IMG/VR virus record: IMGVR_UViG_2636415418_000003
Direction: 5' to 3' (one strand)
DNA length: 12,783 nucleotides
Source of the DNA: a virus
Taxonomy: Duplodnaviria; Heunggongvirae; Uroviricota; Caudoviricetes
Below, piece by piece: positions 4,442 to 5,968 of this stretch. The position numbers were made by a program, and so were the translations under genes. Below the pieces are notes generated by a model. That model was given only the letters and a program-made list of their open reading frames with translations, was not told the origin of the DNA and made no database searches. Numbering within the stretch: position 1 is the stretch's first letter; every line of letters starts with the position of its first letter.

Positions 4442-4456
4442 TATAACAGGTCAAAC
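4442..4456 (+). repeat. Copy A of a perfect 15-bp direct repeat tataacaggtcaaac (copy B at 5954-5968)
   Basis: Exact 15-mer read at both sites; both copies are followed within ~25 bp by an aactgtta-containing palindrome (gtaactgttac at 4466-4476; acagttaactgt at 5981-5992). Confidence 0.9.
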
Positions 4457-4713
4457 GGGTGTTTGGTAACTGTTACAGTATCTAATCGGTTGATTTTAAA
4501 GTGTTTTATTTATATGAACTTAGATTACTGTTTGCTAAATTGTAATCTAACCACTCTGATCACCACGTAATATTGCTCTCGTTCCACGCAACATCACCGA
4601 CATCGCGTCATGATATTTCCCGCCAAAATCACCATCAAATAATAATCATTATCATCTAAAGTACTGATCATTTATACGGTAAAAAATTTATTCAAAAATT
4701 GAGATTTTTATAA

Positions 4714-4730
4714 TTGTTATATTATAACAA
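4714..4730. promoter_or_regulatory. 17-bp perfect palindrome ttgttata-t-tataacaa; candidate operator upstream of the 4884 gene
   Basis: Read directly; lies ~150 bp upstream of the ATG at 4884 in AT-rich DNA; binding protein unknown. Confidence 0.4.
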
Positions 4731-4883
4731 TGAGAGAAGAGAAAGGTTTTCTTAGCAATTCAGTTGTTAACCAAAACAGGTGTAATTTTGTTTACAACTT
4801 AAAATTAACTTTGATTCTACTTTCATCTACTAATATGCAAGAGGTAAGATTGACAATATAACTCCGAGTGTAAGGATTTCTAA

Positions 4884-5306
4884 ATGGTAGACCCAACCTC
4901 CTTAGCTGCAATCTCTGGTACGCTTGATCTTGTGAACAAATCGGTGGATTTAGTTCGTAACCTCCGCAAAAAAGGTGATGAGGAACTAACAGCCGCTGAA
5001 ATGCGCAGCACGTTGATTGATTTACTAGAAGATCTGGTTGAAGTTAAAAGCGAATTTGTGACTTTAAAGGCAGTTTTACTTAGTAAAGAAGAAGAGATCC
5101 AAGAGCTTAAGGCAAAGCTACAAGGTAAGGAATCACTTAAATTTGATGGGCTTCTTTACTGGAAAGAAAACGACCCTACAGCATTCTGCCCTGTATGTTA
5201 TGAGAAAAATAATTCTTATATTCATATGATTCATAACAAGTCAGGTCCAAAAAGTCGCGAGTACTGGACTTGCCGTGTATGTAGTAATATTTTTTATATT
5301 TATTGA
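4884..5306 (+). CDS. Hypothetical coiled-coil protein with C-terminal Cys4 zinc ribbon (140 aa); possible regulator
   Basis: ATG at 4884 with SD aagga (4872-4876) at 7-nt spacing; heptad-like charged N-terminal half; C-terminal CPVC...CRVC pair. Confidence 0.6.
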   Translation: MVDPTSLAAISGTLDLVNKSVDLVRNLRKKGDEELTAAEMRSTLIDLLEDLVEVKSEFVTLKAVLLSKEEEIQELKAKLQGKESLKFDGLLYWKENDPTAFCPVCYEKNNSYIHMIHNKSGPKSREYWTCRVCSNIFYIY

Positions 5307-5340
5307 AAATTACGTCATTTTTCCGGCTTTAGTTGACTTT

Positions 5341-5362
5341 ATGCTTCTCGTTAGAGAAGCAT
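5341..5362. repeat. 22-bp palindrome atgcttctc-gtta-gagaagcat (9-bp arms)
   Basis: Read directly, 35 bp after the stop at 5306; no T tract follows on either strand, so it is more likely a protein-binding inverted repeat than a terminator. Confidence 0.5.
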
Positions 5363-5430
5363 AATTGACCATGCTATAAAATGTGTAATAGATAGATCAC
5401 CATAGCATAATAGGTAATGCATAGTTTACC

Positions 5431-5646
5431 ATAGTTAATAATCATATAATGCATTAAAGATAATACGCGATGCTGGAGCGATAGCGAACAGGTCAGCGTA
5501 TAGTTATTAATCATAATAGTTAATAAGTTTAATTATATTAACTTTATATTATTTATAAAACTATTAACTATGATCATCATACGCGACTCCACTGTCGCGG
5601 GAACATTCAGGCTATAACAAAGGATTAATAAAACTATTAACATAGC
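5431..5646. repeat. Iteron-like cluster of ATAGTTAATA motifs in AT-rich DNA; candidate replication origin or multi-site operator
   Basis: Forward copies atagttaataatcata (5431-5446), atagttattaatcata (5500-5515, one mismatch) and atagttaataag (5516-5527); reverse copies tattaactat (5562-5571) and ctattaacatag (near 5633-5646); also hairpin cgcgac-tccact-gtcgcg (5582-5599). AT-rich DNA inflates chance matches. Confidence 0.35.
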
Positions 5647-5953
5647 CTGATGATATGCACATAGCGTCATAGCTAACGATTGAACGATACAGACTATTCA
5701 ATCTATTACCTATTCCTGATATAACCACAATAACACTATTATTGTGATAACTGATTCTATGTTGCTAACTCATTTCATTCGTGATCAACCAACAATCAGT
5801 CACGTTCTCTATCCTCTCCTAAATTAAAAAGGGGTAATTTTAATTCTTAAGTATCTTTAGATTTATTTTTACCCTTTTTAGTGATGCTGTGATCTACCGG
5901 AGAGGAGAACGTAAACGTCAACTAAAGCCGCCAAGGCTCCCCAACTCCAGATT

Positions 5954-5968
5954 TATAACAGGTCAAAC
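5954..5968 (+). repeat. Copy B of the perfect 15-bp direct repeat tataacaggtcaaac
   Basis: Identical to 4442-4456; sits immediately upstream of the -35-like tttaca at 5972-5977. Confidence 0.9.

What the first reader, a model, noticed from the sequence alone, without database searches (positions are those of the whole stretch)
4442..5968. Perfect 15-bp direct repeat flanking a 1.5-kb segment next to a minimal tyrosine recombinase
tataacaggtcaaac occurs exactly twice, 1512 bp apart in the same orientation, each copy followed by an aactgtta-containing palindrome. A 15-mer recurring by chance in a window this size is unlikely by my rough estimate. The copies could be duplicated operator/promoter modules bound by one regulator, or recombination sites that let the adjacent small recombinase delete or resolve the intervening segment (the zinc-ribbon gene plus the iteron region).
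Basis: partly seen in the sequence, partly recalled or inferred. Interest (0 to 1): 0.6.

Follow-up and report, generated by a model that had tools for sequence, protein, structure and literature searches.

The report
Conserved control motif repeated in a phage satellite
The 15-base repeat is real and conserved, but it looks like a protein-binding control sequence used twice in a small phage-satellite island, once directly against the promoter of its replication genes, and not like a pair of cutting sites for the neighbouring small recombinase.

Summary
TATAACAGGTCAAAC occurs at 4442-4456 and 5954-5968, same strand, 1512 bp apart. The 15-mer alone is not beyond chance (P about 0.12-0.16). It is, however, the head of a roughly 60-bp duplicated module, and both copies are kept at 14-15 of 15 bases in E. 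coli and Klebsiella relatives whose flanks have diverged to 64-90% identity.

The window is a 13.5-kb satellite-like island inserted at a tRNA-Thr 3' end. It has its own capsid gene and a tape-measure homologue of lytic Klebsiella phages.

Copy 1 is the most conserved stretch of a non-coding control block. It forms one arm of a 36-bp imperfect palindrome. Copy 2 ends 3 bp before the -35 hexamer of the first of two tandem promoters of the replication and morphogenesis operon.

The recombination reading fails on four counts:
- Three protein-anchored elements (and three more metagenome ones) keep the motif without the small recombinase.
- At least ten elements have the recombinase and copy 1 but no copy 2.
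- The sites lack recombinase core-site architecture.
- No deletion or circle junction turned up in public contigs.

A different inverted repeat (4520-4550) tracks the recombinase gene (19 of 20 versus 0 of 6).

Best reading: a repeated operator-type regulatory site whose binding protein is unidentified. Interest is moderate.

The parts
4442..4456 (+). Copy 1 of the 15-mer TATAACAGGTCAAAC; left arm of a 36-bp imperfect palindrome
   Evidence: It lies in an 18-column invariant run (TGCATATAACAGGTCAAA), the longest in the 7-sequence alignment of the roughly 800-nt intergenic block. It is 15/15 in L001, L002, L012, L015, L016 and L017 and 14/15 in L014, where flanks are 67-92% identical. It is present in 17 metagenome contigs.
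4461..4477 (+). Right arm of the copy-1 palindrome (GTTTGG TAAC TGTTACA): inverted CAAAC and inverted TATAACAG
   Evidence: Read from the sequence. As single-stranded DNA it folds at z = -3.8 in the window and -5.4 in L012. The inner part GGGTGTTTGRTAAC is conserved. The outer CTGTTAYA varies without compensation in the left arm.
4416..4443 (+). Three TGCATA hexamers phased at 11 bp (4416, 4427, 4438); the last overlaps the start of copy 1
   Evidence: Read from the sequence. Conserved in the alignment, including L014 as TGCATA/TGAATA/TGCATA. Absent at copy 2 and in the phage homologue.
4467..4500 (+). Extension of the copy-1 module (TAACTGTTACAGTATCTAATCGGTTGATTTTAAA)
   Evidence: 27/34 identical to 5986-6019. 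No chance pair in shuffles reaches this.
4520..4550 (.). Inverted repeat TTAGATTAC-N13-GTAATCTAA, the better candidate site for the small recombinase; not part of the 15-mer system
   Evidence: Exact TTAGATTAC at 4095, 4520 and 4542(-). The inverted repeat sits 78 nt after the start of copy 1 in 19 of 20 elements that have the small recombinase gene, and in 0 of 6 that lack it.
4699..4730 (+). Promoter-like site TTGAGA(4699-4704)-18-TATAAC(4723-4728), overlapped by the perfect palindrome TTGTTATATTATAACAA (4714-4730), about 155 nt upstream of the variable gene
   Evidence: Read from the sequence. The palindrome is conserved in all aligned relatives. It carries the same TATAACA half-site as the 15-mer. 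All six TATAACA heptamers of the window lie within 4442-5996.
4884..5306 (+). Variable accessory gene between the copies (140-aa coiled-coil plus zinc-ribbon protein)
   Evidence: ORF and translation; phrog_1244, function unknown. It is replaced by unrelated 145-, 199- and 190-aa genes in L012, L015/L017 and L016, while both 15-mers stay.
5324..5930 (.). Origin-like cassette: AT-rich iterons bounded by a 26-nt inverted repeat (5324-5349 / 5905-5930)
   Evidence: I2, D2, D3, D10, D13. It moves as one block with copy 2 in relatives. Homology of 5324-5967 to L015-L017 ends at the last base but one of the 15-mer.
5954..5968 (+). Copy 2 of the 15-mer, ending 3 bp upstream of the -35 hexamer of promoter P1
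   Evidence: 15/15 in L012, 14/15 in L014 (TATAACGGGTCAAAC) and in L015-L018 and L155 (TATAACAGGTCAAAG), where flanks are 64-80% identical.
5972..6000 (+). Promoter-like site P1: TTTACA (5972-5977), 17 nt, TAATAT (5995-6000). The inverted half-site CTGTTATA (5989-5996) overlaps the spacer and the -10 hexamer
   Evidence: The same layout (15-mer, 2-3 nt, -35, 17-18 nt, -10; 26 bp from the 15-mer to the -10) holds in four sequence variants: window/L012, L013, L014 and L015.
5986..6019 (+). Extension of the copy-2 module (TAACTGTTATAATATTAAATTGGGTTATTTTAAA)
6028..6057 (+). Promoter-like site P2: TTGACA, 18 nt, TAAGAT; the second of the tandem promoters of the rightward operon
   Evidence: The tandem P1-P2 layout is kept in all family variants inspected.
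6382..6573 (+). 63-aa probable ribbon-helix-helix protein, second gene of the operon; a candidate regulator with no demonstrated link to the 15-mer
   Evidence: Homologues give weak ParG, RHH_4 and Antitox_RHH hits below the Pfam cut-offs. AlphaFold2 predicts strand-helix-helix with pLDDT 84. The Foldseek top hits NikR and ParD2 are not significant. Family alignment.
3524..4081 (-). Small (185-aa) tyrosine recombinase consisting of the catalytic domain only; not the partner of the 15-mer
   Evidence: Pfam PF00589, E = 6.5e-21. Nearest solved structures are XerC-like and XerA. The R...HxxR...H...Y residues are present in the translation. It is absent from L015, L017 and L018, which keep both 15-mers.

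Best explanation
The 15-mer is the recognition sequence of a sequence-specific DNA-binding protein, that is, an operator-type regulatory site. It is used at two places in the control region of a 13.5-kb phage-satellite-like island.

Copy 1 is the invariant core of a conserved non-coding control block that lies upstream of a swappable accessory gene. There it forms one arm of a 36-bp imperfect palindrome and is preceded by three TGCATA hexamers phased at 11 bp.

Copy 2 lies 3 bp upstream of the -35 hexamer of P1, the first of two tandem promoters that drive the operon for a small protein, a ribbon-helix-helix-like protein, the helicase-type replication protein, the capsid gene and the tape-measure gene. 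In this window an inverted TATAACAG also overlaps the -10 of P1. A protein occupying these sites would therefore gate P1 and couple it to the upstream control block, possibly by looping across 1.5 kb.

Shown here: the sequence, its extension, its conservation, its fixed position relative to promoter-like hexamers, and its independence from the small recombinase.

Inferred: that a protein binds it, that the hexamers are real promoters, and the sign of regulation (repression is my guess). The identity of the binder is unknown. Candidates are the operon's own ribbon-helix-helix-like 63-aa protein, another conserved small protein of the element, or a helper-phage protein.
For: 1. The repeat is part of a longer module that chance does not produce.
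2. Copy 1 is the longest invariant run in an unbiased, protein-anchored alignment of the intergenic block. It is 14-15/15 where flanks are 67-92% identical.
3. Copy 2 is 14-15/15 in L012, L014 and L015, where flanks are 64-80% identical on at least one side.
4. In four divergent sequence variants the 15-mer is followed after 2-3 nt by TTTACA or TTGACA, then 17-18 nt, then TAATAT or TATAGT. The distance from the 15-mer to the -10 is always 26 bp.
5. The half-site TATAACA recurs as a perfect 17-bp palindrome over the -10 region of a conserved promoter-like site upstream of the accessory gene. All six TATAACA heptamers of the 12.8-kb window fall within 1.55 kb.
6. The left arm is invariant while the outer right arm varies without compensation. 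This fits sequence readout by a protein rather than a hairpin.
7. The gene between the copies is exchanged among relatives while both copies stay.
8. A probable ribbon-helix-helix protein is encoded in the operon that copy 2 precedes.
Against: - No binding protein is identified and no transcription start is known.
- At copy 1 I could not find a convincing promoter in the same register as P1.
- Copy 2 is not universal. Elements with other replication modules (L001-L003, L144, L151, L154, L160) have copy 1 only. So do three elements with the same type of ribbon-helix-helix protein (L142, L152, L153), which have P1 without the 15-mer. L013 has a diverged version, TATAACATGCTGGAC. The second site is therefore dispensable for the family.
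- The spacing between the inverted 8-mers differs between the copies (28 versus 35 bp centre to centre), so one fixed dimer geometry cannot fit both.
- The association of copy 2 with the NFKSE type of ribbon-helix-helix protein (8 of 11 versus 0 of 10) may be simple physical linkage.
Confidence: 0.55

Rival explanations
1. Recombination sites: the adjacent small tyrosine recombinase acts on the two direct copies to delete or excise the 1.5-kb segment holding the accessory gene and the origin cassette.
For: The two copies are direct repeats next to a catalytic-domain tyrosine recombinase with intact catalytic residues. Each copy has inverted 8-mers. The segment between them behaves as exchangeable modules in relatives.
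Against: - L015, L017 and L018 keep both copies but have no small recombinase anywhere in 21 kb.
- At least ten elements with the recombinase have copy 1 only.
- The inverted 8-mers are 20 and 27 bp apart and the central sequences differ between the copies, unlike 6-8-bp overlap regions that must match.
- A metagenome scan able to detect both chimeric junctions returned 17 parental copy-1 sites, 1 parental copy-2 site and no chimera.
- Deletion would remove the origin.
- The TTAGATTAC inverted repeat at 4520-4550 tracks the recombinase gene in 19 of 20 versus 0 of 6 elements.
Confidence: 0.04
2. Evolutionary scar without present function: copy 2 arose when modules were exchanged by recombination or gene conversion between the two control regions. 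It is still identical because the event is recent or because conversion recurs.
For: - Homology between the window and L015-L017 stops at 5967, the end of the 15-mer, so a mosaic breakpoint sits there.
- In the window type, 34 further bases of copy-1 flank are also found at copy 2, as after a conversion tract, whereas in the L015 type only the 15-mer is shared.
- Copy 2 is missing in many relatives.
Against: Copy 2 is kept at 14/15 in L014 and L015, where both flanks are at 64-79%, close to what unrelated AT-rich DNA gives in this alignment. Its position relative to P1 is fixed in four variants. Copy 1 is invariant across the family and in two phages.
Confidence: 0.15
3. Cis-acting replication or packaging signal: an accessory origin site (like crr of satellite P4) or a pac-type site recognised by helper-phage machinery, present twice.
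For: - Copy 2 travels with the origin cassette 5324-5967.
- No terminase gene was detected among the genes scanned, so the island probably needs a helper's packaging signal.
- The 36-bp copy-1 palindrome is shared at 89-100% identity with the lytic Klebsiella phages FBKp34 and KP13-16, which also share a tape-measure homologue and a 69-nt origin-region segment with the element.
Against: - The phage block is absent from close relatives that are 92-94% identical in neighbouring genes. It is therefore accessory in the phage, not a core pac or ori site.
- TATAACAGGTCAA occurs once in the 141-kb phage, in a gap between convergent gene clusters and far from the terminase gene.
- The 15-mer does not resemble the iterons of the cassette.
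- Elements with other replication modules keep copy 1 but not copy 2.
Confidence: 0.15
4. RNA-level element: the copy-1 palindrome is a hairpin in a leader transcript or small RNA. Its right arm could pair with transcripts carrying the copy-2 15-mer, as in the RNA immunity of satellite P4.
For: The block between copy 1 and the accessory gene is about 430 nt (4457-4883), of which about 350 nt is conserved. It is non-coding and has no conserved ORF. The copy-1 palindrome folds well. In the inner stem a G/A variation stays compatible with pairing to U.
Against: - No Rfam family matches anywhere in the window.
- The outer stem varies on one side only, without compensation.
- The phage variant folds into a different, non-significant hairpin.
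- Copy 2 lies upstream of both P1 and P2, so it would be transcribed only by read-through.
- L015-type copy 2 has no complementary arm.
Confidence: 0.06

Closest known systems
Repeated operators of temperate phages (lambda OL/OR; flanking FL/FR sites of coliphage 186), from my own knowledge
   Same: The same short recognition sequence is used at two control regions one to a few kb apart. At least one copy lies directly against a promoter, with scope for cooperative binding or looping. An exchangeable gene lies between the sites.
   Different: No repressor gene has been identified between or beside the sites. The two sites are in direct orientation and are not at divergent promoters. Copy 2 is a single arm (plus a distant inverted 8-mer), not a compact dyad. 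Copy 2 is dispensable in many relatives.
Operators of ribbon-helix-helix regulators (ParG, omega, CopG, Arc/Mnt), from my own knowledge
   Same: The operon that copy 2 precedes encodes a small strand-helix-helix protein with weak ParG and RHH profile similarity. Such proteins autoregulate their own promoters through short direct or inverted sub-sites. The 15-mer holds two (A/T)AAC sub-sites 9 bp apart.
   Different: Ribbon-helix-helix membership is only probable (below Pfam cut-offs; Foldseek E = 4-7). Three elements with the same predicted DNA-contact strand (NINFKSE) lack the 15-mer at P1. A short palindrome in the P2 spacer (TAACGTTA or AAACGTTT in other variants) is an alternative operator for this protein.
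Tyrosine-recombinase target pairs (loxP, FRT, dif/cer, the fim switch)
   Same: Short repeated sequences with internal inverted 8-mers lie next to a small tyrosine recombinase gene.
   Different: The architecture, the match of central regions, co-occurrence with the gene and recombination products were all tested and not met (see the membership test). The TTAGATTAC inverted repeat at 4520-4550 fits this family better.
Satellite-helper cross-recognition sites (P4 late promoters activated by P2 Ogr and Cox; P4 ori/crr; PLE and ICP1), from my own knowledge
   Same: The element looks like a phage satellite. Its most conserved non-coding motif is shared with two lytic phages that also share a tail-length protein homologue with it.
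   Different: The motif occurs once in the phage, in an accessory block that close phage relatives lack. The direction of transfer looks like satellite to phage. No helper factor is known.

Membership tests
Tyrosine recombinase core-site pair | Two inverted recombinase-binding arms flanking a 6-8-bp overlap region | tested here: not met
   The inverted 8-mers TATAACAG/CTGTTAYA are separated by 20 bp in copy 1 and 27 bp in copy 2. In L015-type copy 2 there is no inverted arm at all.
Tyrosine recombinase core-site pair | Identical overlap or central sequence in the two partner sites | tested here: not met
   After the 15-mer the copies read GGGTGTTTGG and CCCTTTACAAACACAGT.
Tyrosine recombinase core-site pair | Sites co-occur with the recombinase gene across relatives | tested here: not met
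   Both copies are present in L015, L017 and L018 without the gene. Copy 1 is present in L150, L162 and L163 without it within 1.5 kb. The gene plus copy 1 occur without copy 2 in at least ten elements.
Tyrosine recombinase core-site pair | Recombination products (deletion or circle junctions) exist | tested here: inconclusive
   There were no chimeric junctions among about 18 natural sites in the metagenome scan, nor in the fetched loci. The sample is small, and deletion products would lack the origin.
Operator / transcription-factor binding site | Fixed position next to promoter elements | tested here: met
   For copy 2, the 15-mer ends 2-3 bp before the -35 hexamer and 26 bp before the -10 in four sequence variants. 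For copy 1, no promoter was found in that register (inconclusive).
Operator / transcription-factor binding site | Conserved above its flanks | tested here: met
   An 18-column invariant run covers copy 1. Both copies are 14-15/15 where flanks are 64-92% identical.
Operator / transcription-factor binding site | Dyad symmetry or repeated half-sites | tested here: met
   Copy 1 is a 36-bp imperfect palindrome. The TATAACA half-site recurs in the perfect palindrome at 4714-4730 and clusters in the control region. Copy 2 is only partly symmetric.
Operator / transcription-factor binding site | A cognate DNA-binding protein binds it | not testable with these tools
   The candidates are only inferred: the ribbon-helix-helix-like 63-aa protein, other small conserved proteins, or a helper factor.
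Lambda-type OL/OR immunity region | Repressor gene between the operators and divergent early promoters | tested here: not met
   The gene between the copies is a variable accessory gene that is swapped while the sites stay. Both sites have the same orientation.
Origin iteron / accessory origin site (P4 ori-crr type) | Same repeat unit as the origin iterons, bound by the replication initiator | tested here: not met
   The iteron families of 5350-5720 (D2, D3, D10, D13) do not resemble the 15-mer. Copy 1 persists with unrelated replication modules. Binding itself cannot be tested here.
Ribbon-helix-helix protein (for the 63-aa protein, 6382-6573) | Profile match above the curated cut-off, or a significant fold match | tested here: inconclusive
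   The best match is ParG at 20.1 bits against a cut-off of 21.4, for a homologue. The predicted topology is strand-helix-helix at pLDDT 84. The Foldseek top hits NikR and ParD2 have E = 4-7.

The most novel reading that the evidence does not exclude
The 15-mer and its 36-bp palindrome could be a satellite-helper cross-talk site. In one version, a protein made by an infecting lytic Stephanstirmvirinae phage (FBKp34-like) binds it and switches on the satellite's replication and morphogenesis operon at P1. In the other version, these phages have captured the satellite's control block as a decoy that soaks up the satellite's regulator. Either would give a sequence-defined handle on how a satellite of a large lytic phage senses, or is countered by, its helper.
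Probability: 0.15. Interest if true: 0.7.

Novelty: new member of a known kind. Interest (0 to 1): 0.4.

Why it matters
The motif is an ordinary kind of thing: a repeated regulatory site. Its value comes from where it sits.

It marks the control region of a 13.5-kb island that looks like a phage satellite of large lytic Klebsiella and E. coli phages. My literature searches did not turn up a description of this family.

The motif gives three concrete handles:
- a precise site to mutate in order to test how the replication and capsid operon is switched on;
- a sequence tag that finds family members in metagenomes (17 of 21 hits were true family members);
- a short sequence shared with candidate helper phages.

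Separating the motif from the small recombinase also points to the likelier recombinase target at 4520-4550.

Tried and rejected
- Chance. The 15-mer alone is compatible with chance. I rejected chance only after finding the extension and the conservation.
- Recombinase sites. Rejected; see the first rival explanation.
- att site of the island. Rejected. The island is bounded by a 31-bp tRNA-Thr 3'-end repeat at window 1142-1172, repeated 13.5 kb away in L006.
- Target-site duplication of an inserted element. Rejected. The similarity extends a further 34 nt on one side only, and the leader after copy 1 is conserved in elements that lack copy 2.
- Known RNA family. None in the window at E up to 1.
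- Small ORF across copy 1 (4415-4570, 51 aa). Not conserved, because relatives have indels.
- LexA, DnaA, CRP and FNR boxes. Compared by eye against consensus sequences from memory; no convincing match, so not pursued.
- Leftward promoter using the TTGACC on the bottom strand of the 15-mer. No -10 hexamer at the right distance at either copy.
- Repeated phage promoter motif. TATAACAGGTCAA occurs only once in FBKp34.
- Core phage pac or ori site. The block is missing from close phage relatives.
- Covariation of a different repeat pair in distant relatives (L019, L020, L021). Nothing significant.
- Scan of viral contigs for the bare 15-mer. This gave only scattered single chance hits. The gapped pattern found nothing there.
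- E. coli complete genomes. The copy-2 region has no match at all, and the copy-1 block matches only 3 of 5426 genomes.
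Full report
**Observation**

The 15-mer TATAACAGGTCAAAC is present exactly twice, at 4442-4456 and 5954-5968 on the + strand, 1512 bp apart. No further copy exists at up to three mismatches. It is the longest exact direct repeat in the window.

By itself it is not remarkable. In Markov shuffles of the window, some exact 15-mer direct repeat turns up in 12-16% of cases.

It is, however, only the head of a longer duplicated module:
- After 10 nt (copy 1) or 17 nt (copy 2), 34 further bases match at 27 positions: 4467-4500 against 5986-6019.
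- None of 888 chance repeat pairs in shuffled windows had a neighbouring segment above 23 of 34.
- Each copy also has an inverted copy of its first eight bases downstream: CTGTTACA at 4470-4477 and CTGTTATA at 5989-5996.

**What the window is**

Bases 1-1175 are DNA shared at up to 100% identity with many of the E. coli chromosomes that match the window. They end in a partial tRNA-Thr 3' end. No intact tRNA gene was found in the window.

A 31-bp repeat of that end (1142-1172) recurs 13.5 kb away in the identical element L006. It therefore bounds an integrated island.

Gene content of the island, left to right:
- a candidate defence gene, DUF2971 / PDC-S31 (1979-2680);
- a 185-aa tyrosine recombinase consisting of the catalytic domain only (3524-4081, minus strand);
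- about 800 nt of non-coding DNA that holds copy 1;
- a 140-aa zinc-ribbon gene (4884-5306);
- an AT-rich iteron region bounded by a 26-nt inverted repeat (5324-5930);
- copy 2;
- a rightward operon with a 57-aa protein, a 63-aa protein, a 489-aa DEAD-box-type helicase, several small proteins, a lambda-gpE-type major capsid protein (10069-11109) and a roughly 603-aa protein;
- an integrase beyond the window.

The 603-aa protein is 35% identical over 683 residues (E = 7e-90) to the tape-measure-position protein of the lytic Klebsiella phage vB_KpM_FBKp34. The two gene ends are 79-88% identical at the nucleotide level.

The element therefore looks like a phage satellite whose helpers are probably large lytic Stephanstirmvirinae phages. 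I found no description of such a family in four literature searches. That is absence of evidence only.

**Relatives**

Helicase homologues and their contigs, three complete E. coli genomes and a metagenome pattern scan gave about 30 related elements.

The family is mosaic. The left accessory genes, the gene between the two copies, the origin and replication module, and the promoter segment are all exchanged independently.

- Both 15-mers are exact in L012, a Klebsiella-type 13.3-kb contig in which the gene between them is an unrelated 145-aa gene.
- In L014 the copies read TATAACAGGTCAAAT and TATAACGGGTCAAAC. Here the flanks are only 64-69% identical to the window.
- In L015-L018 and L155, copy 1 is exact and copy 2 is TATAACAGGTCAAAG.
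- Copy 1 alone is present in L001-L003, which carry a different replication module, and in many metagenome elements.
- Relatives with helicases at or below 42% identity have neither the motif nor an analogous repeat pair.

**Copy 1**

In a protein-anchored alignment of the intergenic block, the longest invariant run (18 columns, TGCATATAACAGGTCAAA) covers the 15-mer.

Copy 1 is preceded by three TGCATA hexamers spaced 11 bp apart. It is followed by GGGT and then GTTTGG TAAC TGTTACA. Together these form a 36-bp imperfect palindrome that folds well as a single strand (z = -3.8 in the window, -5.4 in L012).

Across relatives the left arm never changes. The outer right arm changes freely and without compensation. 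The Klebsiella phage version folds differently. This pattern points to readout of the sequence by a protein rather than to a conserved hairpin.

**Copy 2**

Three bases after the 15-mer comes TTTACA, then 17 nt, then TAATAT (P1). The stronger TTGACA-18-TAAGAT (P2, 6028-6057) follows.

The same layout holds in four variants whose sequences are otherwise barely alignable: window/L012, L013, L014 and L015. In each, the order is 15-mer, 2-3 nt, -35 hexamer, 17-18 nt, -10 hexamer, with 26 bp from the 15-mer to the -10.

In the window type, the inverted TATAACAG overlaps the spacer and -10 of P1.

Homology between the window and L015-L017 ends at 5967. The 15-mer is therefore also a mosaic junction.

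Family variants without the 15-mer keep the P1-P2 tandem but carry other sequences upstream of P1. L142, L152 and L153 are examples.

**A third related site**

A perfect 17-bp palindrome, TTGTTATATTATAACAA (4714-4730), overlaps the -10 region of a conserved promoter-like site (TTGAGA-18-TATAAC). It lies about 155 nt upstream of the variable gene, and it is conserved in all aligned relatives.

It uses the same TATAACA half-site as the 15-mer. All six TATAACA heptamers in the window lie between 4442 and 5996.

**The recombinase**

- L015, L017 and L018 have both copies and no small recombinase.
- At least ten elements have the recombinase and copy 1 but no copy 2.
- The two sites differ in their central sequence and in arm spacing.
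- A metagenome scan with a pattern that would match either chimeric junction returned only parental arrangements.

In contrast, the inverted repeat TTAGATTAC-N13-GTAATCTAA sits 78 nt after the start of copy 1. It is present in 19 of 20 elements that carry the recombinase gene and in 0 of 6 that lack it. Further TTAGATTAC copies lie beside the recombinase start codon. That repeat, present once per element, is the more likely recombinase target. A role in multimer resolution or autoregulation is my inference.

**The phage connection**

The 36 bases 4442-4477 match FBKp34 and KP13-16 at 89%. One metagenome satellite, L161, matches the phage version at 36 of 36.

The whole satellite control block is collinear with a roughly 1-kb non-coding gap of these two phages. 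The phage version lacks the TGCATA repeats, the TTAGATTAC sites and the 17-bp palindrome.

A separate 69-nt piece of the origin cassette (5642-5710) is 97% identical to FBKp34. There it lies immediately outside the end of an IS200/IS605 tnpB insertion.

The phage block is missing from relatives that are 92-94% identical in neighbouring genes, and the motif occurs only once in the phage. It is therefore an accessory acquisition, probably from a satellite, and not a core phage signal that the satellite imitates. It still shows that these phages and this satellite family meet and exchange DNA.

**Candidate binder**

The 63-aa product of the second gene of the operon is predicted as strand-helix-helix (pLDDT 84). 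Its homologues give sub-threshold ParG, RHH_4 and Antitox_RHH matches. The top fold matches, NikR and ParD2, are ribbon-helix-helix proteins but are not significant.

Every family member has a homologue at this position. Copy 2 is found only with the NFKSE strand type (8 of 11 elements, against 0 of 10 for other types). The gene lies 370-430 bp from copy 2, however, so linkage explains this equally well, and there are three exceptions. I treat it as a lead only.

**Verdict**

The best-supported mechanism is an operator-type protein-binding site used twice: once in the conserved control block, and once against the first promoter of the replication and morphogenesis operon (confidence 0.55).

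The rivals are:
- a non-functional recombination scar (0.15);
- a replication or packaging signal (0.15);
- an RNA element (0.06);
- recombinase target sites (0.04).

As a kind of thing it is ordinary. Its context, an apparently undescribed satellite of large lytic phages, is the more interesting part.

Noticed in passing
window 1142-1172; L006 4610 and 18147: A 31-bp direct repeat, CGAAGGTCGTAGGTTCGACTCCTATTATCGG (the 3' end of a tRNA-Thr gene), bounds the island. The island is therefore 13.5 kb long and inserted at a tRNA-Thr site. The window holds only a partial tRNA copy. Identical elements sit beside different neighbouring islands in different E. coli genomes.
   Followed up: partly
window 11479-12783 (runs off the end); FBKp34 84422-86365: The island's roughly 603-aa protein is a homologue of the tape-measure-position protein of the lytic Klebsiella phage FBKp34 (35% over 683 aa, E = 7e-90). 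Both gene ends are 79-88% identical at the DNA level. This suggests a satellite-encoded replacement tail-length protein and points to Stephanstirmvirinae phages as helpers. Relatives also carry Dit-like and head-tail adaptor genes.
   Followed up: partly
window 5642-5710; FBKp34 101240-101308: A 69-nt non-coding stretch inside the origin cassette is 97% identical to the phage. In the phage it begins right after the hairpin-bearing end of an IS200/IS605 tnpB insertion. Its function is unknown.
   Followed up: partly
window 4520-4550, 4095-4103, 4161-4169: TTAGATTAC motifs form an inverted repeat 78 nt after copy 1, and two more copies lie beside the recombinase start. The inverted repeat is present in 19 of 20 elements with the small recombinase and in 0 of 6 without it, so it is the probable recombinase target.
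   Followed up: yes
window 5324-5349 and 5905-5930: A 26-nt inverted repeat (81% complementary, with an exact 14-mer CGGCTTTAGTTGAC) brackets the iteron region. The bracketed block plus copy 2 moves as one cassette among relatives.
   Followed up: partly
window 4884-5306 and the equivalent position in L012, L015-L017, L161: The gene between the two copies is a swap site. It is a zinc-ribbon protein here, unrelated 145-, 199- and 190-aa proteins elsewhere, and there is no ORF in L161. None matched a known defence model.
   Followed up: partly
window 1979-2680; L015 5887-6528; L017 6466-6954; L016 6923-7594: The left arm of the island is a variable cargo region holding known or candidate anti-phage genes: DUF2971 = PDC-S31 here, PD-T7-4 in L015, SieB in L017 and a Dam methylase in L016.
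   Followed up: partly
window 6108-6135: The leader of the rightward operon holds a GC hairpin (CCCGC AG GCGGG) followed by a T-rich run, like an attenuator. Other family variants have a different hairpin plus T-run at the same place.
   Followed up: no
L001 9257-10485; L002 8182-8879; L003 several: In the three complete E. coli genomes that carry relatives, IS2 or IS1 copies are inserted in the non-coding control regions, between the origin and P1 or between copy 1 and the accessory gene. These copies may be inactivated.
   Followed up: no
FBKp34 12713-13696; KP13-16 111411-112513: Two lytic Klebsiella phages carry a roughly 1-kb non-coding block collinear with the satellite control block. 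Downstream of it is a strongly self-complementary stretch of about 180 nt. Close phage relatives lack the block.
   Followed up: partly
window 4121-4136, 4567-4572, 4667-4672: Several GATC sites sit in conserved TGATCA(CC) motifs of the control block, two of them in the spacer of the recombinase promoter-like site (4144-4116, minus strand). One relative carries its own Dam methylase.
   Followed up: no
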